Origin: a virus
Taxonomy: Duplodnaviria; Caudoviricetes
DNA: 54,861 nt
Virus record (IMG/VR): IMGVR_UViG_3300037963_004246
Location: 1 to 54,861 of that record
Direction: 5' to 3' (one strand)
Shown in pieces: positions 1 through 49,302 of this stretch. The notes under the pieces were generated by a model. That model worked only from the letters and a program-made list of their open reading frames with translations. It had not been told where the DNA came from and searched no databases. The translations under genes and the position numbers were made by a program. Positions within the stretch are counted from its first letter, which is position 1. Each line of letters starts with the position of its first letter.

Positions 1-3000
1 TGCATCATCAGATATGGCTGTGTGGCTACTCGGTATTGTGCTATTGCTTGTTCCCAATCCAGGTGTTAAATCTGAACCTGTGTTGTTAATGATAGTATAT
101 TGTTGTCCTATTTCTGCTGTTGCAGGTAGGGTGGGCGCACCACTACCTGTTACATACACATACGAGCCTGATTGTTCGTCAGTTAGTGTTGTTGTGGTTG
201 TTATGGCTACTACACTAATTTTGTTTGCTACTAATCCGTTAGCATTCCCCTTAAACCAAGTAACTCCACCATCACCGGAAGTTATCAATAATTGGTCGTC
301 ACCTGTGGGGTCAGAAACATCACCGCTACCAATTACGAGGTTGTTAGACCCTGTGGTAATGTTGTCGCCCGATTGTGTCCCGATGCAGATATTGTAGTCG
401 CCGCTACTAACCAAGTAAGCAGCCTGGTAGCCTATTCCTGTGTTGTAATCTGAACCATCATCTGGAGTATATAGAGCCTGTCTTCCAATACCTATGTTAT
501 AGTTAGCACTTCCATTGATTGCATACATAGCACTATCGCCAATACCGATATTGTAATCTCCCTCAAATGTCCCATCACCACCATAAGTCGGCATATCCCC
601 TATGAATACATTTTTCGTAGCACTCGCAGTTCCTCTTGCACCGGCCGCATAACCAATACAAACTGAGTTAGTGGACAAAGACCAAATGCCAGCCCAAAAC
701 CCAACTGCGGTTGAACCGAATCCTATATTTTTACCAGCAGAAGAGCCAATAGCGACAACCCTACTATCTGTGCTATTAGTCGTTCCGGCTTGTTTTCCGA
801 TAAACACACCATCTGTTGCTGTTGATACTGCCGTTGCAGCAGACCACCCCATAGCAGTGTTACTCGTTCCGCTCGATAATGCGTCTAATGCCCCTATTCC
901 TACACCTGTATTATACACTGCACTACTTAGTGTTCCGGTGGTTTGATGACCCAATAACAAACTGCCTGTAAAATCAGTCCCACCGGATTTACCATCTGTT
1001 AAATCATCTATGCCGCCCGCAACCCCACTTGGTCCTGTCGGACCGGTCGAACCACCTGGTCCGGTCGGTCCTGTTGGGCCGGTAGGTCCTGTGGGTCCGG
1101 TAGGACCGGTAGCACCATCTGAACCGTCAGCCCCGTCAGAACCAGCGGGTCCTGTTGGTCCTGGAGGTCCTGTTACTCCAATAGTGCCTTGAGAACCAGG
1201 AGGACCTGTTGGTCCTGTTGGTCCTGGAGGCCCTGCCCCACCATCAGACCCGTCTGAACCATCATTTCCAGGCGGTCCTGCTGAGCCGGTTGGACCAGGA
1301 GGGCCAGCTGGTCCCGTCGGCCCTGGAGGTCCTGCAGAACCATCTGAACCATCGCTACCATCAGAACCAGGAGGACCTGCAGGCCCTTGAGCACCAGAAG
1401 GTCCTGGAGGACCGGCAACTCCTACTGTCCCTTGAGAACCAGGAGGACCTGTGGGGCCAGGAGGTCCTGCTGAACCTGTTGAACCTGTATCTCCTTTGTC
1501 GCCCGTTCTTGCGAAGGTGACGAAAACATCTTCTCCATCACTAAATGGTGCTGATGCTGAAGAATCTACTGTGCTTATTGTAATATCGAAATACCCTGTT
1601 TCTTCTGTTATGGAAGATATAGTGTGTAATGTAAATTGTGAAGAATCAGATAAGTTACTGATTTTGATATGGCCCTTTATGGTTGAAGTCGAATCGTCAA
1701 TGGTGCGAAGGAAGGACTGAATATCTGTGCCGTCAAGGTCGCTATCATCAATATAAATACCGGTCGCAGAACTTTGTGTTGAGTTGTCTAACCTTATCTT
1801 GCCTGCTCCTGGGTCTGCCTTTGATGTTGTAGTGCTAAAGTCATACTTAAACGAAGCACCACCAAATACACCTTGAGGCCCTTGTGGCCCTGTCGGTCCA
1901 GGAGGTCCTGCTGAACCTGGAGGGCCTGTGGGTCCAGACCCTCCCGTTGAGCCTGGAGGACCAGAAGGTCCTGCTGGTCCGGCTGGTCCTGTCGGTCCAG
2001 GAGGTCCGGCACTACCATCTGAGCCGTCATCACCGGCTGGTCCGGTTGGCCCTGCTGGGCCTGGAGGTCCCGATGGACCTGTTGCACCATCACTACCAGG
2101 AGGCCCACTTGGGCCTGTTGGTCCTGCTGGCCCACTTGGTCCTGCTGGTCCGGTAGCACCTGCTGGAATACTAAATGCAAATACCTTAGCCGTGTCTGGA
2201 CCTGATGATGTGATACCAATTGGGCCTGTAGTAGCAGTTGGCGTTCCAAAACCTGCTGCAGCACCTGTGCTTCCTGTGGGGCCGGAAGGTCCGGCAGGAC
2301 CTGTTGCGCCTTGTGGTCCGTCTGGGCCTTCTGGTCCGGTTGGACCTGTGGGTCCAGATGAACCTGTTGGGCCTGCTGGTCCGGTAGGTCCGGTTGCACC
2401 AGATGGGATTGTGAATGCGAATACTTTTGCTGTATCAGGGCCGCTTGCTGTTACTCCGATAGGGCCGGTGCTTGCAGAAGGAGTGCCGAAACCTGCAGCA
2501 GTTCCGGTTGGGCCTGTTGGACCCGACGGACCTGAAGGTCCTGTTGGACCCGTAGGGCCAGCCACAGTTGAATCCGCTCCGGTTGGTCCGGTTGGACCCG
2601 TAGGGCCGGTTGGCCCAGATGGTCCGGTCGGTCCAGATGGTCCTGTTGGGCCTGTGTCTCCTTTATCACCTGTTCGAGCAAAAGTTATTGTTACATCTTC
2701 GCCATCAGAAAAGGGAGATGTAGCCGATGAATCAACGGCACTTACTGTAATATCGAAATAACCGCTATTTTCAGTTAGAGAAGAAATTGTGAATAATAAG
2801 AATTGAGAAGTATCTGTTAAATTTGTTATTTTTACATGACCCTTGATTGTCGAGGTTGAGTCATCAATTGTTCTCATGTATGATTGAATGTCTGTTCCGT
2901 CTAAATCAGAATCGTCAATGTAAATACCTGTTGCGGCATTTTGTGTGGAATTATCGAGCCTTAATTTCCCTGAGCCAGGGTCTGAATCTGTTGTAGTGGT

Positions 3001-4569
3001 GCTAAAATCATATTTGAAAGTAGCACCTCCGAAATTCCCTTGAGGTCCCGTAGGTCCTGTTGGACCAGACGGTCCAGACGGCCCCGTAGGTCCGGTAGGA
3101 CCTGTGCTACCCGTAGGTCCTGCAGGTCCCGTTGGGCCTGTTGCTCCTTGAGGAATTGAAAACGCAAACACTTTAGCGGTGTCCGGCCCACTACCTGTTA
3201 CTCCTATTGGTCCGGTAGTGGCGGTAGGGGTTCCGAATCCGGCTGCTGCACCCGTTGGGCCGGTCGGACCTGTTGCGCCTGTTGAACCTGTTGGCCCATC
3301 TGGACCATCCGGTCCTGTGGGGCCAGAAGGCCCTGTTGGTCCTGTGGGTCCTGAAGGTCCGGTCGGTCCTGCTGGACCAGGAGGTCCTGCAACACTTGAA
3401 TCTGCACCCGTAGGACCTGTCGGTCCTGTCGGGCCGGTGGGGCCTGTCGGGCCAGCCGGTCCTTGTAATCCTGTTGGTCCGGTAGGGCCTGTCGGCCCCG
3501 TTGGGCCAGCTGCACCCGTAGGACCTGTAGGGCCTGTTGCACCTCTATCTCCTGAAGTGGAAAAATTAACAACGAGTGGTAGGTTATTAGAAGGTAAAGA
3601 TGCTGATAAAGAATTTACAACATCAACCTCAACGTGGTCTGATTGGCTGGTTAAACCATCAACTCTAAACACCATAAGATTAGTGCCGTCTGCTTTGCAG
3701 ATAGTCAAATACCCCTTCTTACCTACATTGGTTGAGTCATCCCATGATTCAACCCAAGATTCTATCGTATTGCCGTCACTGTCTTCGTGTGAAAAATAAA
3801 CCTTTGTTACTGATGCGACGGTGGCGTTGTTGAACATAAGGTCGCCATCATCAAGATTTGAGCTCGGTGAAGATGTGCTCGTATTGAAGAGTAATTTCAT
3901 ACCACCAAGCCTACCGTCTGGACCTGTTCCTCCCGTAGGGCCTGTTGGACCTGAAGGCCCTGTAGGACCGGTTGGTCCTGGAGGTCCAGCAACAGAAGAT
4001 GCGGGTCCTGTCGGACCTGTAGGTCCTGCCGGTCCTGTGGGACCAGCGGGACCTGTCGGACCAGCGGGACCGGTTGGGCCTGTGGGTCCTGTTGAGCCTG
4101 TCGGACCGCTTGCACTGTTTTGATATGCAACCCAAGTATCTGTTCCGTATTTTCTAACATAGGATTTCTCGAATTGACCTAAAGATTTAGCGAATGCGCT
4201 ACCATTTACTGTTACTCCGGTATCACCTTGAATAGTTACTGTGCCTGACCCCATATTCAAAATACGTAATTCAGTCAAATCAACCGGATAAGGAACGCTT
4301 GAATTGGTGGGGATTGTAATTGTTACTCCACTACCAGAACTTACGAGGACTAATTGCCCCTCGTGAGTGCGTGTTAGAGTAGTGTTTGAGGTTATGGTTG
4401 TTGAATTGGGGCGTATATCCATAGAACGCCCACCGGCAGTTGACCCGTCACCTATGAAAGTCATACCGCTTGTAGTATCTCTGAAAATTTGAGCACCATC
4501 TGGAGTAACAGATATTCTATTTGCTTGAGTATCCGTCAGCAAATTCTTAGCATCTGTTAGTGTCGGCAT
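1..4569 (-). CDS. Collagen-like tail fibre/adhesin, C-terminus beyond window start
   Basis: Read by hand from ATG at 4569 ([11 protein letters not shown]..., GAGGA RBS upstream); frame checked at several points and open at base 1. Long Gly-Pro-X tracts alternate with globular domains; the distal part has N-T-x-x-G repeats like those of trimeric adhesins. Missing from the ORF track because it has no stop in the window. Confidence 0.85.
1487..3035 (-). repeat. Internal duplication of a ~125-aa domain in the fibre (about 1487-1868 and 2654-3035)
   Basis: Both copies read FGGA(S/T)[52 protein letters not shown]...FARTGDKGD; offset 1167 bp, in frame. Confidence 0.85.
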
Positions 4570-16877: not shown

Positions 16878-17409
16878 TGTGTCGAGCAGCACTGTGGGAT
16901 AAGCCGAAGGGGGGAAGGTAATATGCTGCCCGACTATTACAGCGTGTGCTGCAGACTACTTAAGCATTTTCTTATATAGTAGCCAAGAAAAAATTTTCTC
17001 AAAAATTCCTGCAGGCTGTGGGCGTTGTAAGATACGTCGGTTTTTCGATTTTTGGCGACTTACTATATAAGGTTGACGCCACCAACCTTAATAAGGGGCA
17101 TCCCCATTTTCACTTTGCCCCGCTACGGACGGGGAAGTGGTAGGCGTGTAGTATAACTATACGTTGTATTGGGTGAAAACCTTCGTGAAGGGTTAGTATT
17201 CCATGTATGGGTTGAATCGGCTTCGCAATGAATCGCTAACATTTCATTCCGAAGATAAAATGCGGGTCGGTGTTTGTGGTCGCGAATGAAATAAACGTCA
17301 ATACTTCGGCGGGATTTCCCAACAAAAAATCCACCGGAAGGGTCTTCGGATGCGACAAAAAAATAGACAAAACCACAAACGAATAAAAGGTAAAATGGAA
17401 GTGGAAATC

Positions 17410-17811
17410 ATGGTTGACTATACCAAACAATTGATTGAAACCCCAAAACATGAACCAAAGGCTAAGGGTAGTAAAAGCCGTCAAAGCGCGCAAAGAACCC
17501 CTTATTCGACGCAAAAAATGTTCTACAACAATTTGCGACGAACATACGTGGCCTATCGGGACAATGTGGAAGATTGCGAAAAGGCGAAAGCCGAAGCCGC
17601 AAAGGTGAAGGGTGCGAAAGCCGAAATCACCTTGTCGAAAGACATGAAATCCCACATGACGGCCGCCCTTCAAGGTGCGCTAATGTCCCTAAATGGTGCA
17701 TACACCCGCCCCGATAAGGCCGGTGTTCGAATCCAAAACCTTAGCAATAAGCAATTGGACAAGACGATTCGGGAAGTGAATGACCTTTGCACCCGAATTG
17801 AAGCACTATGA
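17410..17811 (+). CDS. Basic helical hypothetical protein (island gene 1)
   Basis: MVDYTKQL..., 133 aa; Glu only GAA, Gln only CAA. Confidence 0.65.
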   Translation: MVDYTKQLIETPKHEPKAKGSKSRQSAQRTPYSTQKMFYNNLRRTYVAYRDNVEDCEKAKAEAAKVKGAKAEITLSKDMKSHMTAALQGALMSLNGAYTRPDKAGVRIQNLSNKQLDKTIREVNDLCTRIEAL

Positions 17812-18129
17812 TGGTTCGACCATTGGGATGACTTTCAAATGCACCCCACGATAGATTAGACACGGTGGGGGTGTGGGTAGTGGTGGATGGGACACCACAT
17901 GGGGACACCCACACGATAAAGGCGAAGGAACGGAATACGTAAGGGTCGGGGGGGTATATCCCCCCCGATACCGATAAACCACCAACAAGATGGCGTGAAG
18001 GGTTGATGCCCTAAACACCGGATTGGGGTTGCCCCTACGGGGCATTTGTGCTACCATAGCGAATAGGGCCAATGAACGGTTAGAATACCAAACAAGCCAA
18101 ACACAACAAGCGTAGCGACCCAACCGGAA

Positions 18130-18402
18130 ATGTTTGCCGGAAGCGGATATAGCAATGACGATATAGACAACAATGACGACACCAAACCGAACCACCACTT
18201 CATGCGGCTTAATTGGCCGTGTGTAAATTGCGGAACACAAGTCAAGGACACCGAAGGGGATTACTTCGGAAGGCTTGGCTTCCTACCGGAAGGCGCATAC
18301 GATGAAATGTATGAACACTACTTTAACGGTAGGGTGTGGTGTGTAGGGTGCATGGCTAAAAGCGGACTATTCAAGAACCATAACGGGGGTGATAAACAAT
18401 GA
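18130..18402 (+). CDS. Zn-finger hypothetical protein (island gene 2)
   Basis: CVNCG...WCVGC; start uncertain. Confidence 0.6.
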   Translation: MFAGSGYSNDDIDNNDDTKPNHHFMRLNWPCVNCGTQVKDTEGDYFGRLGFLPEGAYDEMYEHYFNGRVWCVGCMAKSGLFKNHNGGDKQ

Positions 18403-18527
18403 TTAGGAACAAGTGTAGCAAGTGTGGGGGATGGGATTCATCCGTCCCCCACAAGTGGCGGGTGATAAACGGCCAATACATCAAATCCATAGGCGTGTGC
18501 CGACAATGCGAAAAGGGGGTGAATTGA
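18399..18527 (+). CDS. Zn-finger microprotein (island gene 3)
   Basis: MIRNKCSKCGG...GVCRQCEKGVN, GGGGGTGA RBS, ATGA overlap. Confidence 0.65.
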   Translation: MIRNKCSKCGGWDSSVPHKWRVINGQYIKSIGVCRQCEKGVN

Positions 18528-18646
18528 TAACCAAGTGTAGGAATGATGTGTGCAACCGACACGGCACTAATACCGACAAGAATGGTAATATGTGGTGTGA
18601 CGATTGCGTAATGCTAATAGCATTCGGTGTAATCGAATTCCATTGA
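18524..18646 (+). CDS. Zn-finger microprotein (island gene 4)
   Basis: TTG start after GGGGGTGA; CRNDVC...WCDDC. Confidence 0.55.
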   Translation: MITKCRNDVCNRHGTNTDKNGNMWCDDCVMLIAFGVIEFH

Positions 18647-18681
18647 TTTCCAAACAATGGGGTTAGGTTCGGACTACGTAA

Positions 18682-18741
18682 GGGGGGTTGGGGGGTCGAA
18701 AGACCGCCCTTCCCCCCGCAAATTTTTTATTTCTTTTTTTT
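18682..18741 (+). terminator. GC-rich hairpin plus T-tract ending the island transcript
   Basis: GGGGGGTTGGGGGGTC-GAAA-GACCGCCCTTCCCCCC followed by TTTTTTATTTCTTTTTTTT. Confidence 0.65.
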
Positions 18742-18850
18742 GAGCACTGAGCCTGCGCAGCCTGAGGCTGACAGCAGAAGCTGTCTGAGAAAAAACTGTG
18801 CAGAAAAACTGTGCAGAAACGCTGACCCAGAAAAACTGACCTAAAGAGTT
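18742..18850. repeat. SAG-dense A-tract cluster 1
   Basis: GCAGCCTGAGGCTG and tandem AAAAACTGTGCAG units; gives T-tracts on the minus strand downstream of a minus-strand gene. Confidence 0.7.
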
Positions 18851-20670: not shown

Positions 20671-20871
20671 TCAGAGCCCCCCTTCCCAATCTCGCTTCAA
20701 ACAGTCGTTGCATTGAGTATTCCAATACGCAGCGGCGTTACCGCAGAATTCAAAGGAGTCGCAAGGTATTGAGTTACAAAGGCAGAGAGAAGTCCCAGAG
20801 GCCGGATTGCAGCACCCACACCAGATTGTGTGTGAGCACTTGTCGCAGATTTTTTGTTCACAGTCGGACAT
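20671..20871 (-). CDS. Cys-rich microprotein
   Basis: MSDCEQKICDKC...; 12 Cys in 66 aa. Confidence 0.55.
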   Translation of the reverse strand: MSDCEQKICDKCSHTIWCGCCNPASGTSLCLCNSIPCDSFEFCGNAAAYWNTQCNDCLKRDWEGGL

Positions 20872-20996
20872 CAGCATCCCCCGTTGAGTTTCCAAGTGAG
20901 GCATCGGGCCGAGCAAAATCGGCCAGACACATCAATCAGATTAGTGCAGTCAGGGTGTCGGCATCGGGGGCGGGCTACGGGTGCAGCTTTTTCCAT
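20871..20996 (-). CDS. Zn-finger microprotein
   Basis: MEKAAPVARPRCRHPDC...FCSARC; ATG about 25 nt below TATA. Confidence 0.55.
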   Translation of the reverse strand: MEKAAPVARPRCRHPDCTNLIDVSGRFCSARCLTWKLNGGC

Positions 20997-21014
20997 AGAC
21001 AGCCTATATTTCAT

Positions 21015-21039
21015 CTACTATATAAGGGTTGGTATCCTG
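21015..21039 (-). promoter_or_regulatory. CAG-N10-TATA promoter
   Basis: CAG GATACCAACC CTTATATAGTAG. Confidence 0.75.
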
Positions 21040-21110
21040 AAGCCTGAGCCTGCAGTTTACCAAAGACTATAAACCCGCATCCCATCTTATAGGCGGGGTT
21101 CGTTTCCAAC

Positions 21111-21290
21111 CAGCCTGGAGGCTGCAGCCTGAGGCTGGAGGCTGAAAAAAGCAGCCTGGTAGAAAAAACCTGCGTAAAAAATGCTGCAGAAAAACCTGGC
21201 AGGAGCATTCTGCCGAGAAAAAGCTCAAAAAGCAGCCTCGCCTGGCAGGTCGGCGTTTTAAACAGCAACCTGACTCAGCGGGCCGAGAAA
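21111..21290. repeat. SAG-dense A-tract cluster 3
   Basis: Contains the exact GCAGCCTGAGGCTG of cluster 1, then A5-6 tracts separated by CAG/CTG/GAG/CTC. Confidence 0.7.
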
Positions 21291-21372
21291 ATATCTCATA
21301 GACCAGCGCAGGGTAGGTATCCTCACAGTTATCCGCTGTTAGAGGACACACTCGCTGGTGCAGACCGTATCG

Positions 21373-21534
21373 CTAAATCTGTCTGAAAGAGGGCCGCAGC
21401 CATGCTGGCTCACGAGCGCTACCAGATGTGAGTTCCTTCTGAATCTCCTTCTCAAGAGCACGATTTAGCAGGAGTTTATTTAGCCCCTCACAGGCAGTGA
21501 ATTTGAATTCAGGCATTCTGATACCGCTGTTCAT
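21373..21534 (-). CDS. Small hypothetical protein
   Basis: 53 aa by hand; ATGA overlap. Confidence 0.45.
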   Translation of the reverse strand: MNSGIRMPEFKFTACEGLNKLLLNRALEKEIQKELTSGSAREPAWLRPSFRQI

Positions 21535-22187
21535 TCCGACTCCTCCCCAGGAAATCTGATGTCGTATTTACTCATACACTTACTGCAATAGAACTGACTG
21601 TGATGAGCAGCACGATTACAGCAGGTCGGTTGTGAAAAGCCTGGCCTGTTCATCTCACACATACGCTCGACATCAACATCTCGTATGAAGCGACTGTAAT
21701 CTACACCGCTGGGGACTCCAGGCCACTCATGAGGGTCATATATCCACCCTCGTGTTAGAGCATGGAGTGCAGCCCTCGGCTTATGCAGGTCGTATTCTTT
21801 ACTGCCTGGAATTTCAGCATAACCTATGAAAGTCCAATGCGAGCCTGGCTGACCCCACTCGTTGAACAGACCCATTGATTGTTCTGTTTCACGCCTGAGT
21901 TGTTCAGGAGGCATACACATATTCGCTGGGTTTTCTTCAGCCCACCATTTTTCCTCATCTTCAGCAGAATAATTTTCAAGGGGCTCATCCCATGTTTCTG
22001 GGGAACAGCGAGCATAACGAGAAGCAGGGTCGTGAAACTGCTCATACTTTTTCTGGTGGTCAGCCCACCATTCTTCAGTATTGATTACAGTATGTTCCCT
22101 GTTGCTGGTAGGGGAGATGAAAGTCCACTCCCAATTGAACATCTGTTTTCGCATCTGCTCGACAGTCATAACTATGGTTCTCATCAA
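21531..22187 (-). CDS. Hypothetical protein
   Basis: 218 aa, Trp-rich, C-terminal Cys cluster. Confidence 0.6.
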   Translation of the reverse strand: MMRTIVMTVEQMRKQMFNWEWTFISPTSNREHTVINTEEWWADHQKKYEQFHDPASRYARCSPETWDEPLENYSAEDEEKWWAEENPANMCMPPEQLRRETEQSMGLFNEWGQPGSHWTFIGYAEIPGSKEYDLHKPRAALHALTRGWIYDPHEWPGVPSGVDYSRFIRDVDVERMCEMNRPGFSQPTCCNRAAHHSQFYCSKCMSKYDIRFPGEESE

Positions 22188-22558
22188 GCATCACCTGCCT
22201 TCCATAACTCATCGTGCAGTATTATTTCGGAGGAAAACATCCAGAAGAATAAGTCCCACTCGATAGCACCACCCTGACCTTGCGAGTTATATTCTTCATA
22301 ACTCGGATTATTCAGGCAATACATTGAGTCTAACGAATGAGCACTCGTGCCGGAGACTCTTGTAAAGTATGTGGGGTTCAGGCATAATTGGTCGAGTATA
22401 GGTTCATCTGTAAAGGGATTCTGCGGGTGCGAGTATAGCATTTTATCCTGCATAACAGCGGGCTTTTCAGTTTCCCATGTGCGTCTGATTGTTCTCAGTC
22501 TCATGGGTCGGGTTAAAAATTCAGGGCGTTGGTTTTCAGTTTGTTTTTGTTGAGTCAT
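22184..22558 (-). CDS. Hypothetical protein
   Basis: 124 aa with GGAGA RBS. Confidence 0.6.
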   Translation of the reverse strand: MTQQKQTENQRPEFLTRPMRLRTIRRTWETEKPAVMQDKMLYSHPQNPFTDEPILDQLCLNPTYFTRVSGTSAHSLDSMYCLNNPSYEEYNSQGQGGAIEWDLFFWMFSSEIILHDELWKAGDA

Positions 22559-33088: not shown

Positions 33089-33253
33089 ACGAGTTTATAG
33101 GTGGTTGGTGGATATATACCCAACTCAATGACCCTGCAAGTAGGATAGTGGGATACGTTCAGTCAAATATGATACACCCGCCTGAACTGTTCGGGGAAGC
33201 GTTGCCTTTAGATAGAGTAATACTCATTGAAGAGTTAGATATTAGGAGTTGGA

Positions 33254-33643
33254 ATGTTGTTCGATGATGACGATTGGGATACAGAAGACAGTCCATTATA
33301 TGAAGAAGCATTTTATTCTGATTTACCGCAAGAGTTAGAATTCATACTAACAACAGAACCAGACTATGAAGGTTTTTGTGTTGATGTGTATAATACTGAA
33401 TATACTATTACCTTTGATGAAGACGGAGTTAAAACAATACCTTCGGGTTGTCTGGTGATAACTAAGGATAGGGCTATATCCCTGTCTATGTATAGAATGC
33501 TCAAGATTGGTTTTGGTGTATCGGAAAAATTCCAATACAGAACAGTTTCTCAAGATGTTGCTAATGTCTGGATTAAGTGGGATATGGATTTGCGACAGGA
33601 CATACACGATGGAGTCCTGAAAGACGATGGGGATATAGTATGA
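33254..33643 (+). CDS. Acidic hypothetical protein
   Basis: 129 aa with AGGAG RBS. Confidence 0.55.
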   Translation: MLFDDDDWDTEDSPLYEEAFYSDLPQELEFILTTEPDYEGFCVDVYNTEYTITFDEDGVKTIPSGCLVITKDRAISLSMYRMLKIGFGVSEKFQYRTVSQDVANVWIKWDMDLRQDIHDGVLKDDGDIV

Positions 33644-34254
33644 AGAACAGGGAACAAATCAGAGAAAGAATGGTATCTGAAGAAGACGATTCCATAGTCG
33701 AGGCCTTAATGTGGGTTCTCGAGGATGACGGTTGCGCTTTTTGTTCTCACCCACAAAGAAGGGATATTGAGATGCGTATTAGGTCTGGTCAATCAACAGG
33801 CACATTCATAGAAACCAAATTGCGCTGGCCTACAGGAACTGTGCGTAGCCACATGGATTCTCACTTAGGGGCAGACCCTGTTGAAGAAGCCTATGTTGAA
33901 AATATGAGGAAAGAAACAATCAATACGCTAAATTCAGCCGAAGCCGTTGTTGAGAGAATACAATCTTATCTCGATGAATGGGAAGAGCAAAAAGACATTC
34001 ACGGTATGGATGCTGAGTGGGTTGCTATGGCTACGAGCCTCACAAGAGAACTCAAGGGTGGTCTAAAGTTAGTCGGACAACTCAAGAAGGAAATAGGAGT
34101 CGAATCTCAAATACTTTTGATGCGTGGGCGGCAGGATGCCCTCATGCGTATATTGATTCACGAATTAGAGGGATACCCTAACGTATTAGATAACATACAC
34201 AGGGAAATGTTGATGCTGGAAGCACCAATAGATGTCGAGGGGACTGTTCTATGA
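33640..34254 (+). CDS. Zn/HTH plus coiled-coil protein (terminase small subunit candidate)
   Basis: CAFCSHPQR..IE...G....TVRSHM..H followed by helices; function is inference. Confidence 0.45.
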   Translation: MKNREQIRERMVSEEDDSIVEALMWVLEDDGCAFCSHPQRRDIEMRIRSGQSTGTFIETKLRWPTGTVRSHMDSHLGADPVEEAYVENMRKETINTLNSAEAVVERIQSYLDEWEEQKDIHGMDAEWVAMATSLTRELKGGLKLVGQLKKEIGVESQILLMRGRQDALMRILIHELEGYPNVLDNIHREMLMLEAPIDVEGTVL

Positions 34255-39804: not shown

Positions 39805-39963
39805 ATGGATTGGGACTGTCCTGTTTGCGACGGCAACATGACTCACACGCATTCAGACCTTTATGACGTTCACTATGCCTGCGAAGTCTGCGGTTCAAGA
39901 TTAGTCGTTGATTCGGCTGTTTTGAATAGCCCGAAGGTTAATGAACCGCAACGTAGGAGTTGA
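39805..39963 (+). CDS. Zn-ribbon microprotein
   Basis: CPVCDG...CEVCG; GGTGA RBS. Confidence 0.55.
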   Translation: MDWDCPVCDGNMTHTHSDLYDVHYACEVCGSRLVVDSAVLNSPKVNEPQRRS

Positions 39964-39967
39964 TATT

Positions 39968-40795
39968 ATGGGAATCAAGGCGAATACATTTTCACTTAGA
40001 AGACTTCTGGAATTAACTCAGCGAAAGCAAAACGTGGGCGGTAAAGCACAAGAACAGGTTATTGCCTGTGTCCTTAGATATAATGATGGTTATATCTCCA
40101 CCACCTCTTTAGTCCGTGATGGTAAAACATCGTTAGGCAGATTCATAATTCAAGGTGAATTAACAGGCGACAACCCCGCTATTTGTATTCCAGACATTAA
40201 CCGGTTCTTAGGAGTCCTTTCTTCTCACGGTAAAGAAGTGACCGTTGAGTCTGAAAATACTAAATTACGAATCAAATCTGGAAAGAAGCAAACCACATTA
40301 GCAGGCGGTATGACCGGATTAGCATTCCCACATTCTCCTGAAACAATCGGGGAGTGGGAAGCAAAGTCAGTTGATTTGGCTGGTAAGTTAGACCTGACCG
40401 ATGGGGCATACATAATGCGAGATGGCTCAAAGCGTATGCCTATAATGTCTATTACTGTTGAAGCGGTTGAATTGTTTGAAGGTCTGCGTTGCGACAACAT
40501 GAACAACCAGAAACTCAACCGATATACGTTCAACATTTCAGACGAAGATGATTCATTATTAGTGTCTGTTGGAGATGAATTGAAGGGTCGCACATTGACT
40601 GAAATAGAATACACATCAACAGGCAAAGAACACTTTGAGGTTACATTTGAGGGTGGTTTGGATAACATACTCAAACCATATTCAGGTGATTGCACTATCC
40701 ACTTCTTAGACTTCAGACCTGAAGGTCAAGGCATTCGTGCTATATTCATACTACCTGACGACTCATGGGTATTCCAAGCGGGGGTTCTTGACTGA
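39968..40795 (+). CDS. PCNA-like sliding clamp
   Basis: About 275 aa, two-domain beta-alpha pattern, near RFC and PolB; divergent sequence. Confidence 0.55.
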   Translation: MGIKANTFSLRRLLELTQRKQNVGGKAQEQVIACVLRYNDGYISTTSLVRDGKTSLGRFIIQGELTGDNPAICIPDINRFLGVLSSHGKEVTVESENTKLRIKSGKKQTTLAGGMTGLAFPHSPETIGEWEAKSVDLAGKLDLTDGAYIMRDGSKRMPIMSITVEAVELFEGLRCDNMNNQKLNRYTFNISDEDDSLLVSVGDELKGRTLTEIEYTSTGKEHFEVTFEGGLDNILKPYSGDCTIHFLDFRPEGQGIRAIFILPDDSWVFQAGVLD

Positions 40796-41019
40796 TGGCC
40801 TCTGGTCGTAATATCAGAATACGCAAACGTATTCTCGATGTTATGGAAGTCGGAGAAACATATACTACGAGAGAAATATGGGAAAAACTGTATTATGACG
40901 AAAGAGGGACAAGACGCTTCTTAGGGTCTGTCCTTCAATTATCAATGGTAATGTCCAGAACTCCTGGAATACAAAGAATGGGAAAGAAGAGGCAAGAAAA
41001 GAGGTGGCGACGTGATTAG
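40795..41019 (+). CDS. Winged-helix protein (paralog family)
   Basis: RIRKRILDVM..GETYTTREI...GSVLQLSMVMSRTPGI. Confidence 0.6.
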   Translation: MASGRNIRIRKRILDVMEVGETYTTREIWEKLYYDERGTRRFLGSVLQLSMVMSRTPGIQRMGKKRQEKRWRRD

Positions 41020-42157
41020 ATTAGAAACAGATATTATCCATGACGAATATACAGCAATTGCTGAAAAGATGTTCGATGTGCCTCTTGAAGAACGGATGGT
41101 TACTGAAATACTAAACAACGTATCCCCACCTCAAGAGTGGTCTATTGGTTGTATCTATGGGCCATCAGGTGCAGGTAAGACTACCCTGCTAACTACTAAC
41201 TTCGGTGAGCCATACGAACACGATTGGAAACGAGGCGAAGCAATCATCTCATCCATTGGTTGTATTGGTCTTTTCCCAGAACAGGCTGCAAGTATCCTAT
41301 CATCGGTTGGTCTGTCGTCTGTCCCTTCGTGGTGCAGACCATACAATACACTTTCAAACGGTGAGCAATTCCGAGCCGATTTAGCGGCGGCAGTTGCTCA
41401 TGGTATAGTCAATGGTGGTATTATCTGCATTGACGAATTTACCTCAGTCGTTGATAGAAATGTGGCTAAGGCAGCATCATACGCCTTGCAGAAGCACATA
41501 AGAAAGTCTGATGCTAAGGTGGTTGTAGCCTCCTGCCATGAAGACATATTAGAGTGGTTGATGCCCGATTGGGTGTATAACCCTCTTGAGGGTAAAACCA
41601 TCCATGCAGACGTCGGGGGGTGGTCTTTTCAACGACCTCCAATTGAACTCGAAGTATTCAGGGCGGAATATGAAGCGTGGGACCTGTTCAAAGCACATCA
41701 CTATTTGACTGAGGAATTGAACAAGGCGGCTAAAATTTTCATGGCCTGTTGGAATGGGAAACCCGTAGCAGTAACCTGCATACTACCATTCCCTAACGGC
41801 GGCATACAGAATGGCTGGCGAGCAACCCGTAGTGTTGTTTTGCCGGATTATCAGGGTTTAGGTATAGGTGTTAGATTGTCTGACTTTGTAGCATCTATGT
41901 GTAAGGCAGGTGGTGGTCGCTACTTTAGCAGACACTCACACTTTGCCTTCGCTAAACATAGATTCGATAATCCAGATTGGAAGGAAACAGCCGTATCTCG
42001 TAAAGTGCATACGCATTCAGGCAATGAAGAATGGGGTTGGAAACAGAACCTAAGAGAATGTTATTCGTTTGAATACATAGGTGCTGAAGCACCTGCGGAA
42101 GTAGCAGAATTGTTTTGGGGTTGGAAGGTTGATGCTGGCGGAGTGGAGTGGATATAG
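41012..42157 (+). CDS. ABC-type ATPase fused to Mom-like GNAT acyltransferase (putative DNA-modifying enzyme)
   Basis: GPSGAGKTT, LSNGEQFR signature, ICIDEF, SCH; C-terminal FKAHHYL and RSVVLPDYQGLGIG acyl-CoA motif; no TM segments. Confidence 0.8.
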   Translation: MIRLETDIIHDEYTAIAEKMFDVPLEERMVTEILNNVSPPQEWSIGCIYGPSGAGKTTLLTTNFGEPYEHDWKRGEAIISSIGCIGLFPEQAASILSSVGLSSVPSWCRPYNTLSNGEQFRADLAAAVAHGIVNGGIICIDEFTSVVDRNVAKAASYALQKHIRKSDAKVVVASCHEDILEWLMPDWVYNPLEGKTIHADVGGWSFQRPPIELEVFRAEYEAWDLFKAHHYLTEELNKAAKIFMACWNGKPVAVTCILPFPNGGIQNGWRATRSVVLPDYQGLGIGVRLSDFVASMCKAGGGRYFSRHSHFAFAKHRFDNPDWKETAVSRKVHTHSGNEEWGWKQNLRECYSFEYIGAEAPAEVAELFWGWKVDAGGVEWI

Positions 42158-42158
42158 A

Positions 42159-42512
42159 ATGGGAAAAGAAACAGGATTTAATGGAAGAAATTACTCGAGA
42201 ACGATAGGCAGGGCTTACGAATACATACAGGAAAATGGGCCGTCTGAGCCACACGTAATACACAAATACTTAGTGACTCGCAAGAGGTTCTATAATGATA
42301 GGACTGCTCAAGACACGGCATCGTCTTGCTCAAAGATGAGTCAAATTATGCGTATGTCTCCTGTCTTTAGGTATGAAGGTGGTCTGTTTTTCACGAAGCC
42401 GTTAGAAGAAGTGGCTCGCAAATGGATGAGTTACGCTCACCCCATCAAACCATTCCATAGGCTGCCGGAAATTCTTCAAGATGAAATAAGGCGATTAGAA
42501 GCCATTGAATAG
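42159..42512 (+). CDS. Winged-helix-like protein
   Basis: RAYEYIQENGP....IHKYL...SKMSQIMRMSPVF. Confidence 0.5.
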   Translation: MGKETGFNGRNYSRTIGRAYEYIQENGPSEPHVIHKYLVTRKRFYNDRTAQDTASSCSKMSQIMRMSPVFRYEGGLFFTKPLEEVARKWMSYAHPIKPFHRLPEILQDEIRRLEAIE

Positions 42513-42661: not shown

Positions 42662-42937
42662 ATGCAGACAGAGATTGTCGGTAATGTGGAATTGGAAATT
42701 GCTGAAGAACGCTTGACTCGCTACTTGGAGATGGCTGATGGTCGAAAGATTAAGGTTATAACTCAAATAGTGAAGTCTGAACAACAATATAGAGATAGGG
42801 ATTGGCTCGCCGAACAATATACAGTCAAAGATATGTCTATGCAAGAGATTGCAGACATCTGTGATGTATCGGCTATGACTATCAACCTGTGGCTGAACAA
42901 ATACGACATACCAACCCGTTCAAGGGGCAGACGATAA
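42662..42937 (+). CDS. HTH DNA-binding protein
   Basis: YRDRDWL...Y...MSMQEIADICDVSAMTI..WL.KY.I..R. Confidence 0.75.
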   Translation: MQTEIVGNVELEIAEERLTRYLEMADGRKIKVITQIVKSEQQYRDRDWLAEQYTVKDMSMQEIADICDVSAMTINLWLNKYDIPTRSRGRR

Positions 42938-42969
42938 TATTCATAAACCGAAATAATCCCCCTATTATT

Positions 42970-45207
42970 ATGATAGTGGATAGGCTTCGGGGCAGGTCGG
43001 TGCTAATACGGCATCGGAATCCAGCCACATTAGAACGAGTGGAAACTCGTATCAATGACGTTATGCCCTATTGCTTCGTTGAGACTCAATATGCAGACAT
43101 GGTGTCCTGTATAGCCAAAGAAGAGGGTTATGTGGGTGTCTATGGTGAGCCACTAACTAAGTGTATATTCCCAGACCCTTCTGATGTGGGGAAACTCAAG
43201 GGTTCTTTCAAGACATGGGAGGCTAACATACCATTCGTAAATAGAGTGCTATGTGATAAGAAGAGCAATTTCCCTAACTACAAACACCGTATCTGGTATT
43301 TAGATATGGAGTGGTCTATGGAAACAGGGACTATCACCGCAATTACAGTCTATGATAACTATACCGAGAGAGTCTTTACTTGGTTCTTATGCAATGACTC
43401 TTGGCCGTTAGCAGGTCCGGTATCGTCAATGCCCTGCAAAGACCATCCAGACGGATTAGATACTGTGGAATTCGATACTCCCGCTATCGCCTTTATGACT
43501 GAAAAGCAAATGCTTCAGCACTTCGTAAATCACCTCATCAAACATGACCCCGATGTAATTACAGGTTGGTTTGTTGTCGGTGCTGATATACGGGTTCTTG
43601 CTGAGCGTCTTGACTATTGGGGAATAGGTGCTAAAACGCTGTCGCCTCTTAACCGTCATAGATACGAATACAAAGACGATTGGTCTCAGCCAATTCCTGG
43701 TCGCTTGTGTATTGACCTGATGGTGGCGTGGTCTAAGTTGTGGCAGTTAAAGAACGGTAAATTACCTAACCTGAAATTAGACACGGCGGCATACGAAGGT
43801 CTGAATGAACGAAAGATACCATTACCTGACGGACACGATACATATTATTCTGATATAGGGACATACATTCACTATAACAGGGTTGATGTGGAATTGATGC
43901 CTCGACTGAATTCACTCAACAATGCGATAGAACATTTCTTGGCTGTTCAGCACTTAGTCCAATGTGATATTAGGACTACTCCATTCGTGACTAAGATATT
44001 CAGCCTCTTGGCTATGCGTGACCCTGAATTTGAATATCGAATCCCATCCAGACCTCAATTTTCTAAGGTGGATTACGAAGGTGCTGATATAATGGAACCT
44101 GAACCCGACATATATGAGAACATTGGTATCTTCGATGTGCGAGCCATGTATCACTCAAATGTTGCTAAGTATGGTATCTCATGGGAAACAATAGATGCTG
44201 ACGGTGATGATATAGGCAACGGTCTGTGTTTTAATCGTAGCAAAACAGGTGTTTTACAGCGACAAATGGATATGATGACTAACCTGCGAAACGAATACAA
44301 AGCCAAGATGAAAGAGTCCAAGACCGATGAAGAGCGCAGACGATATGATTCCCTGCAATATGCTACTAAGTCGCTTGTGGCCTCTATGTATGGCGTATGT
44401 GGTGACTCAAAGTATGGTTTGTATCACCCAGATGTTGCTGCTGCTATCACATTCACGTCAAGGAGAACATTAGGGGAATTGAAAGACCATTGCGAAGAGC
44501 GAGGTTGTGAAGTGATTTACGGCCACACCGATTCAGTATTCGTAAGAGTCCCCGACCCCGAACAGGGCCTATCTATGATAACTGAAATCAATGGTCTAAT
44601 GAAACCTATTATTACTGAATTTGAAAAGTGGTGCTCATCTATGCTAATAGTAGCGAAGAACAGGTATGCTTGTAGGGTATCTTGGACTGATGGTGAACAC
44701 CATGAGCCGCAAACATACATCAAGGGAATAGAGATGAAACAATCCCGAATGCCTCAAGTGATGAAAGATGCTATGGAGAACGTCATTGATGGTCTGCTTG
44801 ATGGGTATTCGCCTCAATACATTACTAACATTACTACTCAACTCATAGAAGATGTGATGAGTGGTGATAGGCATTGGGAAGACCTGTGTTTGCGAGGCAA
44901 ATTAGAGCGTGATTTATCTGAATACAAAGTCCTGTCCGAAGCAAGGGCGGCTGCTGATTGGGCTAACAGAACGCTCGGCAAAGATTATAGAGCAGGCTCT
45001 TCCTTCTATGTATGTCTTGACGAATCAGGTAAATATATCGCCTTCGATGATGTATCTGAATTAGAGGGCCACGCAACAATAGGATACAGGGATATTGCGG
45101 AACGATTTATCTGTAAGAAAATAGAGCCATACTTCAACATGATGGGAGAAGACCCTATCGTATTGAGTAACGCTATCAACGGTTTGGGTGGTATGGAATG
45201 GCTGTAG
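42970..45207 (+). CDS. polB: Family B DNA polymerase
   Basis: Exo I YLDME, FDVRAMYHS, KSLVASMYG, YGHTDS, KNRY, KGIE; start MIVDR. Confidence 0.95.
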   Translation: MIVDRLRGRSVLIRHRNPATLERVETRINDVMPYCFVETQYADMVSCIAKEEGYVGVYGEPLTKCIFPDPSDVGKLKGSFKTWEANIPFVNRVLCDKKSNFPNYKHRIWYLDMEWSMETGTITAITVYDNYTERVFTWFLCNDSWPLAGPVSSMPCKDHPDGLDTVEFDTPAIAFMTEKQMLQHFVNHLIKHDPDVITGWFVVGADIRVLAERLDYWGIGAKTLSPLNRHRYEYKDDWSQPIPGRLCIDLMVAWSKLWQLKNGKLPNLKLDTAAYEGLNERKIPLPDGHDTYYSDIGTYIHYNRVDVELMPRLNSLNNAIEHFLAVQHLVQCDIRTTPFVTKIFSLLAMRDPEFEYRIPSRPQFSKVDYEGADIMEPEPDIYENIGIFDVRAMYHSNVAKYGISWETIDADGDDIGNGLCFNRSKTGVLQRQMDMMTNLRNEYKAKMKESKTDEERRRYDSLQYATKSLVASMYGVCGDSKYGLYHPDVAAAITFTSRRTLGELKDHCEERGCEVIYGHTDSVFVRVPDPEQGLSMITEINGLMKPIITEFEKWCSSMLIVAKNRYACRVSWTDGEHHEPQTYIKGIEMKQSRMPQVMKDAMENVIDGLLDGYSPQYITNITTQLIEDVMSGDRHWEDLCLRGKLERDLSEYKVLSEARAAADWANRTLGKDYRAGSSFYVCLDESGKYIAFDDVSELEGHATIGYRDIAERFICKKIEPYFNMMGEDPIVLSNAINGLGGMEWL

Positions 45208-46481: not shown

Positions 46482-49302
<2,821 letters not shown>

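What the first reader, a model, noticed from the sequence alone, without database searches (positions are those of the whole stretch)
41012..42157. ABC-ATPase/Mom-like GNAT fusion as candidate writer of a SAG adenine mark
Seen: soluble ABC ATPase fused to a GNAT domain with HHYL and QGLGIG motifs, between the clamp and PolB genes. Established: phage Mu Mom is a GNAT-fold enzyme that hypermodifies adenine in (C/G)A(C/G)N(C/T), and ABC-ATPase-fused Mom-like domains have been predicted to be viral DNA-modifying enzymes. SAG is half of the Mom SAS core. Inference: this enzyme modifies A in SAG during replication, which would explain the island (kept unmodified), the clusters (heavily modified) and the promoter CAGs as one writer-mark-reader system. 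The link is circumstantial.
Basis: partly seen in the sequence, partly recalled or inferred. Interest (0 to 1): 0.88.

Follow-up and report, generated by a model that had tools for sequence, protein, structure and literature searches.

The report
ABC-ATPase/GNAT fusion, not the SAG writer
A marine archaeal-type virus carries a conserved ATPase-acetyltransferase fusion gene that probably puts an acyl mark on nucleic acid, but a relative that lacks the gene keeps the same odd SAG-free DNA stretch, so the gene does not explain that pattern.

Summary
ORF 41012-42157 (+, 381 aa) is a soluble ABC ATPase with intact catalytic motifs, fused to a GNAT domain carrying HHYL and QGLGIG. It lies in the clamp-PolB replication module of a magrovirus-like virus.

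It matches phrog_11143 over its full length (E 1.4e-109). This is the GNAT+ABC-ATPase family that Aravind's group predicted to acylate a DNA nucleobase. I found no experimental characterisation.

It is not a Mom family member. It has no PF25680 hit, hhalign gives 0.6% probability, and the fold resembles acetyl-CoA GNATs.

New support for a DNA role:
- ParB_N fusions or upstream ParB_N genes in relatives.
- A DNA polymerase A fusion and a chromo-domain fusion.
- In relatives lacking the gene, the same slot holds a DNA methylase.

ASCH and NSUN2-like fusions keep RNA or cytosine targets open.

The SAG-free island (17016-18742) is real and striking. However, G002 (67.6 kb, CheckV 100%) has no ABC-GNAT gene and still has a 1679-bp SAG-free island after its terminase gene. 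Two complete phages that carry the gene have no such island.

Verdict: a new member of a known, uncharacterised family. Target base and motif are unknown.

The parts
41012..42157 (+). ABC-ATPase/GNAT fusion gene (381 aa, GTG start, TAG stop)
   Evidence: ORF. phrog_11143 E 1.4e-109. Models with pLDDT 85.6 and 90.1.
41012..41608 (+). ABC ATPase domain (aa 1-199): Walker A 41159-41182, signature LSNGEQ 41351-41368, Walker B 41420-41437, D-loop 41441-41455, H-loop 41531-41545
   Evidence: Motif positions, invariant. Foldseek top hits are ABC nucleotide-binding domains such as MJ0796, FbpC and MalK. NCBIfam hits all fall far below their cut-offs.
41609..42154 (+). GNAT domain (aa 200-381): HHYL 41696-41707, CoA-type motif QGLGIG 41852-41869
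   Evidence: Pfam Acetyltransf_1 E 1.2e-6 on the domain alone. Foldseek top hits are RimI, GCN5, Naa50 and other acetyl-CoA GNATs. H230, Y231, L232, Q281 and G282 are invariant.
40795..41019 (+). 74-aa basic ORF overlapping the start of the fusion gene; possible partner, function unknown
   Evidence: ORF. No Pfam, PHROG or PADLOC hit. Conserved directly upstream of the gene in G001 (E 6e-24), G005 and G006.
42129..42512 (+). 127-aa ORF overlapping the 3' end of the fusion gene, function unknown
   Evidence: ORF. No family hit.
39941..40795 (+). Sliding-clamp-like gene upstream
   Evidence: phrog_947 'DNA polymerase processivity factor' E 1.9e-5. Syntenic in relatives.
42889..45207 (+). Family B DNA polymerase downstream
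   Evidence: Pfam DNA_pol_B E 7.5e-35.
17016..18742 (.). SAG-free island.
   Evidence: Zero CAG/GAG/CTG/CTC over 1726 bp. Top motif of 510 tested. Equivalent islands occur in G007, G002, L011 and L012.

Best explanation
The gene encodes an ATP-dependent, acyl-CoA-using N-acyltransferase that acts on nucleic acid. The most likely substrate is the virus's own DNA, marked during or after replication to protect or label it. It would fill the same niche as a phage DNA methylase.

Shown here:
- An ABC ATPase with every catalytic motif intact.
- A canonical CoA-type GNAT domain.
- Membership in a very large, strongly conserved viral family.
- Placement in the replication module.

Inferred:
- ATP binding closes two ABC domains head-to-tail, as in other ABC ATPases. 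This would clamp or scan nucleic acid and present a base to the GNAT site.
- The invariant His-Tyr dyad and the Q-G-x-G-x-G loop would position the acceptor amine and the acyl-CoA.

The base (cytosine N4 or adenine N6), the acyl group and the sequence motif are all unknown. There is no evidence that the motif is SAG.
For: Family and literature:
- Full-length match to phrog_11143, E 1.4e-109.
- 45% identity to the Tenacibaculum phage pT24 protein, the phage named for the predicted DNA-nucleobase acyl-modification family (PMC7824862 passage).

Domains:
- All ABC motifs and the GNAT motifs are invariant.
- 63 of 70 members hit Acetyltransf_1 and 63 of 70 hit ABC_tran.

DNA-linked context:
- 8 of the 20 long representatives that I scanned carry a mutually homologous N-terminal ParB_N-like domain.
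- A separate ParB_N gene sits directly upstream in Streptococcus phage phiNIH1.1 (E 2.3e-11) and Pasteurella phage Pmp13 (E 1.7e-7). In both phages the pair lies just upstream of the terminase genes.
- ParB-like partners are experimentally shown to activate phage DNA base-modifying dioxygenases (PMC13229309 passages).
- One protein fuses DNA polymerase A to ABC-GNAT, and one fuses a chromo domain.
- In the Mu-like phage phiE255 the gene follows the tail-fibre genes and is followed by a formyltransferase gene.
- In relatives G002/L006 and L008, which keep the clamp-PolB synteny but lack the gene, the slot holds a PLP enzyme plus an N6/N4 DNA methylase (PF01555, E 7.9e-7). The window itself has no PF01555 methylase.
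Against: - No experiment on any family member turned up in searches.
- The closest folds are protein or small-molecule acetyltransferases (RimI, GCN5, Naa50). The aminoacyl-tRNA acetylating toxin AtaT also appears, at rank 45.
- Two fusions point towards RNA or cytosine: a C-terminal ASCH domain in P0254, and an NSUN2-like m5C methyltransferase plus pre-PUA in P0394.
- Some Gordonia phage records annotate the next gene as a tRNA methyltransferase.
- The window has no ParB_N gene.
- The ABC domain resembles transporter-type nucleotide-binding domains rather than the Rad50/SMC/UvrA types.
- The methylase-in-the-same-slot argument rests on one clade contrast.
Confidence: 0.5

Rival explanations
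1. RNA-directed acetyltransferase. Either an ATP-driven writer of N4-acetylcytidine on tRNA or rRNA, working like TmcA/NAT10 (ATPase + GNAT), or an acetylase of aminoacyl-tRNA like the GNAT toxins TacT/AtaT. The virus would use it to tune or take over translation.
For: - ASCH domain fused at the C-terminus of P0254 (Pfam E 9e-6). ASCH proteins such as E. coli YqfB hydrolyse N4-acetylcytidine (PMC6972931 and bioRxiv 10.64898/2026.02.27.708502; only the abstract starts in the search listing were seen. The EcoSal passage was read).
- P0394 fuses an NSUN2-like RNA m5C methyltransferase and a pre-PUA domain to ABC-GNAT.
- AtaT is among the fold hits.
- Gordonia phage records annotate the adjacent gene as a tRNA methyltransferase.
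- The TmcA precedent for a GNAT acylating an aromatic amine is cited in PMC13219725.
Against: - ParB_N fusions and neighbours, the DNA polymerase A fusion, the chromo fusion, and replacement of the slot by a DNA methylase all point to DNA.
- The TmcA GNAT family (PF13718; this accession is recalled, not taken from a call) is not among the 11 families listed at E<=0.1.
- The ATPase is an ABC type, not a helicase.
- Each RNA-type fusion is seen in a single protein.
Confidence: 0.2
2. Protein acetyltransferase. The GNAT domain acetylates a viral or host protein, such as a replisome or chromatin protein. The ABC domain would act as an ATP-gated recruitment or regulatory module.
For: - The best structural matches are protein N-acetyltransferases: RimI 5isv/2cnm, Naa50 in NatE 4xnh, GCN5, HP0935.
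- The gene sits among replisome genes.
- A chromo-domain fusion would also fit chromatin-protein acetylation.
Against: - Fold-level likeness among GNATs does not predict the substrate. Silva et al. say the same for Mom.
- The family-specific invariant HHY motif is not a general GNAT feature (my knowledge). In the one stretch hhalign aligned, it lines up with Mom's active-site H48-Y49.
- ParB_N coupling is typical of DNA-modification systems.
Confidence: 0.12
3. One reading: the enzyme hypermodifies adenine in SAG, and the SAG-free island, the SAG-rich clusters and the promoter CAGs form one writer-mark-reader system.
For: - The island is real and extreme.
- Both gene-carrying records that include the terminase region, G000 and G007, have an island.
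- The family's HHY aligns with Mom's H48-Y49 dyad in the only stretch hhalign aligned. That dyad is in Mom's active site.
Against: - G002 (67.6 kb, CheckV 100%) lacks the gene but has a 1679-bp SAG-free island plus a further 577-bp gap after its terminase gene. CTS/SAG is its top motif of 510 tested.
- Complete genomes of Nonlabens phage P12024S and Burkholderia phage phiE255 carry homologues and have no SAG-free or comparably anomalous island.
- 0 of 27 partial loci with more distant homologues show one.
- Genome-wide SAG is neither depleted nor enriched (observed/expected 1.03).
- Silva et al. report that simple acyl groups on adenine N6 are unstable (abstract).
- The protein is not in the Mom family.
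Confidence: 0.05

Closest known systems
GNAT + ABC-ATPase family of phages (phrog_11143; described by Iyer, Zhang, Burroughs & Aravind 2013 as cited in PMC7824862; example Tenacibaculum phage pT24)
   Same: Same two-domain architecture over the full length (E 1.4e-109). 45% identity to the pT24 homologue. Same invariant motifs.
   Different: This copy sits in a magrovirus-like archaeal-type virus, between the clamp and PolB genes, with no ParB_N partner in the record. The family's activity is only predicted. I could not read the original 2013 paper, which is not held.
Phage Mu Mom (PF25680, phrog_1384, PDB 8bv8)
   Same: GNAT fold acting, or predicted to act, on a nucleobase amine in viral DNA. 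An invariant His-Tyr dyad early in the domain aligns with Mom H48-Y49 in the only stretch hhalign aligned. In phiE255 the gene occupies a post-tail-fibre position, where Mu carries mom.
   Different: - No detectable sequence relationship.
- Mom uses Gly-tRNA(Gly) and has an essential HTH-like insertion.
- This protein has the canonical CoA loop QGLGIG, an ATPase domain that Mom lacks, and only a low-confidence loop where Mom has its insertion.
TmcA / NAT10 (ATPase + GNAT writers of N4-acetylcytidine in RNA)
   Same: The same logic: an NTPase fused to an acetyl-CoA GNAT that acylates an aromatic exocyclic amine of a base. TmcA is cited as precedent in PMC13219725.
   Different: The ATPase is an ABC type, not a helicase. 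No Pfam hit to the TmcA-type GNAT at E<=0.1. The context is viral DNA replication, not tRNA genes.
ParB-dependent phage DNA base-modifying enzymes (5mYOX T-dioxygenases, PMC13229309)
   Same: Family members are fused to, or preceded by, a ParB_N domain, as those dioxygenases are.
   Different: Different chemistry: acyl transfer rather than oxidation. The window's own copy has no ParB partner.
ABC transporter nucleotide-binding subunits (MJ0796/LolD, FtsE, SufC)
   Same: Closest folds and sequence hits for the N-terminal half.
   Different: All NCBIfam scores are far below their cut-offs (27.9 bits at best against 264.85). No permease gene lies nearby and the neighbours are replication genes. 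The domain is fused to a GNAT domain.

Membership tests
GNAT+ABC-ATPase viral family (phrog_11143) | Full-length profile match | tested here: met
   E 1.4e-109, residues 2-361 on profile positions 3-354 of 357.
GNAT+ABC-ATPase viral family (phrog_11143) | N-terminal ABC ATPase with Walker A, signature, Walker B and H-loop intact | tested here: met
   Foldseek hits are ABC nucleotide-binding domains.
GNAT+ABC-ATPase viral family (phrog_11143) | C-terminal GNAT domain with a CoA-binding Q/R-x-x-G-x-G/A loop | tested here: met
   QGLGIG at aa 281-286, with Q281 and G282 invariant. Acetyltransf_1 above its cut-off. The definition of the loop is from my own knowledge of GNATs.
GNAT+ABC-ATPase viral family (phrog_11143) | [quoted passage not shown] | not testable with these tools
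   This is only a prediction in the literature. The available runs are assembled contigs, which cannot show base modification.
Mom family (PF25680) | Match to the Mom profile | tested here: not met
   Not among hits at E<=0.1, and not among the 25 listed of the 43 families matched by the 70 members. Mu Mom itself scores 2.1e-75. hhalign of the family against a Mom alignment gives probability 0.6%.
Mom family (PF25680) | HTH-like insertion (Mom residues ~175-209), essential for activity | tested here: not met
   Described in PMC13219725 section 13. In the GNAT model, the stretch between the last core helix and the final strands is a low-confidence loop without helices (full-protein residues ~326-349). 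No structural superposition on 8bv8 could be run.
Mom family (PF25680) | Active-site His-Tyr dyad (H48/Y49, numbered H58/Y59 in Silva et al.) | tested here: inconclusive
   H230 and Y231 are invariant. They align with Mom's HY in the only stretch hhalign aligned, but that alignment is not significant (E 0.099, probability 0.6%).
Mom family (PF25680) | Essential R111, S124, D149 and R151; aminoacyl-tRNA as acyl donor | not testable with these tools
   No reliable alignment exists to map these residues. The canonical CoA loop argues for an acyl-CoA donor instead; this is inference.
TmcA/NAT10 ac4C writers | Helicase-type ATPase plus TmcA-type GNAT | tested here: not met
   The ATPase is an ABC type. 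No TmcA-type family is among the Pfam hits at E<=0.1.
ABC transporter ATP-binding subunit | Score above a curated equivalog cut-off; a partner permease | tested here: not met
   Best NCBIfam score is 27.9 bits against a cut-off of 264.85. Neighbouring ORFs are replication genes or small soluble ORFs.

The most novel reading that the evidence does not exclude
The ABC-GNAT enzyme and the DNA methylase that replaces it in the same clamp-PolB slot in G002-type relatives are alternative writers of a mark at the same short motif (SAG). The variable, always SAG-free cassette after the terminase gene would then be a stretch that must stay unmarked, for example an early-expressed or protein-recognised region. 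This would be an acyl-CoA- and ATP-dependent DNA base acylation system with a built-in unmodifiable island, in abundant marine archaeal viruses.
Probability: 0.07. Interest if true: 0.85.

Novelty: new member of a known kind. Interest (0 to 1): 0.4.

Why it matters
The family is very large: 2915 cluster representatives at 50% identity, found in 91 phage records from many hosts. It also reaches eukaryotic algae. It is strongly conserved, sometimes carries inteins, and still has no tested function.

If it acylates DNA bases using acyl-CoA and ATP, that would be a new enzymatic route to DNA hypermodification, distinct from the tRNA-dependent route of Mom. It could also be a source of restriction-resistant DNA.

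For this window the practical result is negative but useful. The striking SAG-free cassette needs an explanation other than this gene.

Tried and rejected
- Homodimer prediction (two copies plus two ATP): no verdict. Median score 0.41 against a mark of 0.42. This is not evidence either way.
- Iyer et al. 2013 (NAR) and Krishnan et al. 2020 (NAR) are not held. What I say about the family's original description is second-hand, from PMC7824862. Their supplements, and those of Silva et al. 2026, may hold architectures or motif data that I could not see.
- PADLOC gave only partial ABC hits (mad3 E 4e-8 over 70 residues). The protein is not a known defence component.
- Sequencing runs: all 24 listed runs are assembled contigs, so they carry no information on base modification, strand or expression. 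Contigs of two other studies (X3, X4) carry the island with three substitutions, at 17616-17620. By my reading, none of these creates a SAG.
- The A-to-G hypermutation reading of the island is not general. An excess of GGG/CCC and CGG/CCG appears in G000, L011, L012 and G007, but G002's island does not show it.
- Genome-wide SAG observed/expected is 0.90-1.04 in gene carriers and 0.70-0.93 in non-carriers. I rejected this as evidence because it is confounded by GC content and by phylogeny.
- The records behind L014, L024 and L031 (51-55 kb) were not held, so they could not be searched for the gene.
This resend adds that field and the accounts; nothing else is changed.

Full report
**What is there**

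ORF 41012-42157 (+ strand, 381 aa, GTG start) is real.
- The N-terminal ~200 residues carry every ABC-ATPase motif: Walker A GPSGAGKT, signature LSNGEQ, Walker B IICIDE, a D-loop and an H-loop.
- The C-terminal ~180 residues carry HHYL and the CoA-type loop QGLGIG.
- Pfam gives Acetyltransf_1 above its cut-off and ABC_tran just below it.
- NCBIfam gives only far sub-threshold transporter-subunit hits.
- PHROGs gives a full-length match to phrog_11143, annotated 'unknown function', at E 1.4e-109.
- AlphaFold models are confident: pLDDT 85.6 for the whole protein and 90.1 for the GNAT domain alone.
- The whole model matches ABC nucleotide-binding domains. The GNAT model matches acetyl-CoA GNATs such as RimI, GCN5 and Naa50.

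**The host virus**

The record is a 54.9-kb linear virus contig, 81% complete by CheckV. It encodes:
- a large terminase and an Mre11-like nuclease;
- an RFC-like clamp loader, a clamp-like protein and PolB;
- a PD-(D/E)XK nuclease;
- a chaperonin inside the replication cluster.

This matches what Philosof et al. describe for magroviruses of Marine Group II archaea (PMC5434244, passages). Near-identical sequence occurs in marine metagenome contigs of 12 studies.

**The family**

The protein has 5118 relatives with E<=0.001 among the 7999 candidates scored, and 2915 cluster representatives at 50% identity. Homologues occur in 91 phage records, including:
- Tenacibaculum phage pT24 and Nonlabens phage P12024S;
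- Gordonia phages and Aeromonas phage PX29;
- Streptococcus and Lactococcus temperate phages;
- the Mu-like Burkholderia phage phiE255.

[quoted passage not shown] The original 2013 paper is not held. My searches found no experimental work on the family.

**Is it Mom-like?**

As family membership, no.
- Mu Mom hits PF25680 at 2.1e-75 and phrog_1384.
- The window protein hits neither. PF25680 is not among the 25 listed of the 43 Pfam families matched by 70 family members.
- BLASTP against Mom gives E 6.9.
- hhalign of a 70-sequence family alignment against a 28-sequence Mom alignment gives 0.6% probability.
- Mom's structure 8bv8 is in the PDB but is not among the hits that searches list from the top 50 ranks, in either the PDB or the viral library.
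- Mom uses Gly-tRNA(Gly) and needs an HTH-like insertion (PMC13219725: abstract, section 13). This protein has a canonical CoA loop and no such insertion.

The only stretch hhalign aligned puts the invariant H230-Y231 on Mom's H48-Y49, and both Mom papers place that dyad in the active site. This is a lead, not evidence.

**What the context says about function**

For DNA:
- 8 of the 20 long representatives that I scanned carry a mutually homologous N-terminal ParB_N-like domain.
- A ParB_N gene directly precedes the gene in phiNIH1.1 and Pmp13, and the pair sits just before the terminase genes.
- ParB-like partners are shown to activate phage DNA base-modifying dioxygenases (PMC13229309, passages).
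- Single proteins fuse DNA polymerase A or a chromo domain to ABC-GNAT.
- In phiE255 the gene follows the tail-fibre genes, with a formyltransferase gene next.
- Relatives G002/L006 and L008 keep the RFC-clamp-HTH-PolB synteny but lack the gene. In them the slot holds a PLP enzyme and an N6/N4 DNA methylase. The window itself has no such methylase.

For RNA or cytosine:
- One ASCH fusion. ASCH proteins hydrolyse N4-acetylcytidine; I saw only the abstract starts and a passage.
- One NSUN2-like/pre-PUA fusion.

Silva et al. also report that simple N6-acyl groups on adenine are unstable, which argues against a plain acyl-adenine mark.

My weighting of the explanations:

| Explanation | Confidence |
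|---|---|
| DNA base acylation, base and motif unknown | ~0.5 |
| RNA target | ~0.2 |
| Protein target | ~0.12 |
| SAG-adenine writer | ~0.05 |

**The SAG link**

The island is real. The stretch 17016-18742 has no CAG, GAG, CTG or CTC, where about 106 would be expected. Of 510 degenerate trinucleotides tested, CTS/SAG is by far the most anomalous (score 98, against typical top scores of 5-20). Genome-wide SAG is not unusual (observed/expected 1.03).

Equivalent SAG-free islands lie directly after the terminase gene in four other records:

| Record | Island length |
|---|---|
| L011 | 1294 bp |
| L012 | 1454 bp |
| G007 | 1762 bp |
| G002 | 1679 bp, plus a further 577-bp gap |

The window's island shares no detectable sequence with those of L011 and L012 apart from a short element at the left edge. 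The motif TGGGCGTT recurs at that edge in G002 and G007.

The decisive case is G002. It is rated 100% complete and has no ABC-GNAT: 0 candidates in the profile search and a best tblastn E of 0.67. It nevertheless has the island.

The converse also fails:
- Complete genomes of P12024S and phiE255 carry homologues but have no such island.
- None of 27 partial loci with other homologues shows one.

Limits of the comparison:
- G001, G005 and G006 carry the gene but are fragments without the terminase region.
- 19 more distant terminase relatives show no island within the parts covered.

The one escape is that G002's methylase writes the same motif. That is untested and I rate it low.

**Verdict**

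The protein is a new member of a known but experimentally uncharacterised family. The 'Mom-like' label and the SAG-adenine writer model are not supported. The SAG-free cassette is a separate phenomenon that remains unexplained.

Noticed in passing
window 17016-18742; also G007:43033-44795, G002:31246-32925 and 33243-33820, L011:8424-9718, L012:3606-5060: A 1.3-1.8 kb cassette directly downstream of the large terminase gene has no CAG/GAG/CTG/CTC on either strand, in five related virus records. The window's cassette shares no detectable sequence with those of L011 and L012; the other pairs were not compared. The window's cassette encodes small zinc-ribbon-like ORFs and GC-rich hairpins. Its presence does not depend on the ABC-GNAT gene. 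No mechanism was established.
   Followed up: partly
window 17020-17035; G002 ~31225; G007 ~43035: A short conserved element (TGGGCGTT-like), followed by a TATA-like box, marks the left edge of the SAG-free cassette in the three records read. The last SAG sites, including CTGCAG, lie just before it.
   Followed up: no
window 18742-18841 and 21040-21250: SAG-dense intergenic repeats (units such as AAAAACTGTGCAG and CAGCCTGAGGCTG) sit next to TATA-like boxes. The windows 20751-22250 hold 49-63 SAG per 500 bp, against a mean of 29.8.
   Followed up: partly
L006:7678-9600 and L008:3422-5358: In relatives lacking the ABC-GNAT gene, the clamp-PolB slot holds a PLP-dependent enzyme (PALP, E 5.6e-12) and an N6/N4 DNA methylase (PF01555, E 7.9e-7).
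   Followed up: partly
proteins P0288, P0321, P0392, P0396: Some family members carry an intein inserted in the ABC domain: Hint plus LAGLIDADG domains, or the Intein_splicing domain.
   Followed up: no
proteins P0398, P0400, P0401, P0405, P0423: Homologues occur in eukaryotic algae and protists (Emiliania huxleyi, Hondaea, Aureococcus). Some are fused to a chromo domain or an FtsK-gamma-like domain.
   Followed up: no
L004:3872-5604 (Burkholderia phage phiE255 gp29-gp30): In this Mu-like phage the ABC-GNAT gene overlaps a downstream formyltransferase gene (Formyl_trans_N, E 2.9e-21). The pair lies after the tail-fibre genes, which is where Mu carries mom. This hints at a two-step modification.
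   Followed up: no
window 40795-41019 and 42129-42512: Two small basic ORFs with no family hit overlap the two ends of the fusion gene. The upstream one is conserved in the same position in G001, G005 and G006.
   Followed up: partly
L040:3233-3911: A 678-bp stretch free of GCS/SGC trinucleotides (score 43) lies in a contig carrying a distant ABC-GNAT homologue (34% identity). It may simply be an AT-rich spacer.
   Followed up: no
window 1866-2167: A 301-bp stretch without any WWW trinucleotide (score 42.5) lies inside the large minus-strand ORF 1-4569, in a GC-rich region (GC 0.53-0.61).
   Followed up: no
window 46733-48286: A chaperonin gene (phrog_5725, E 3.2e-129) lies within the replication cluster, as reported for magroviruses.
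   Followed up: no
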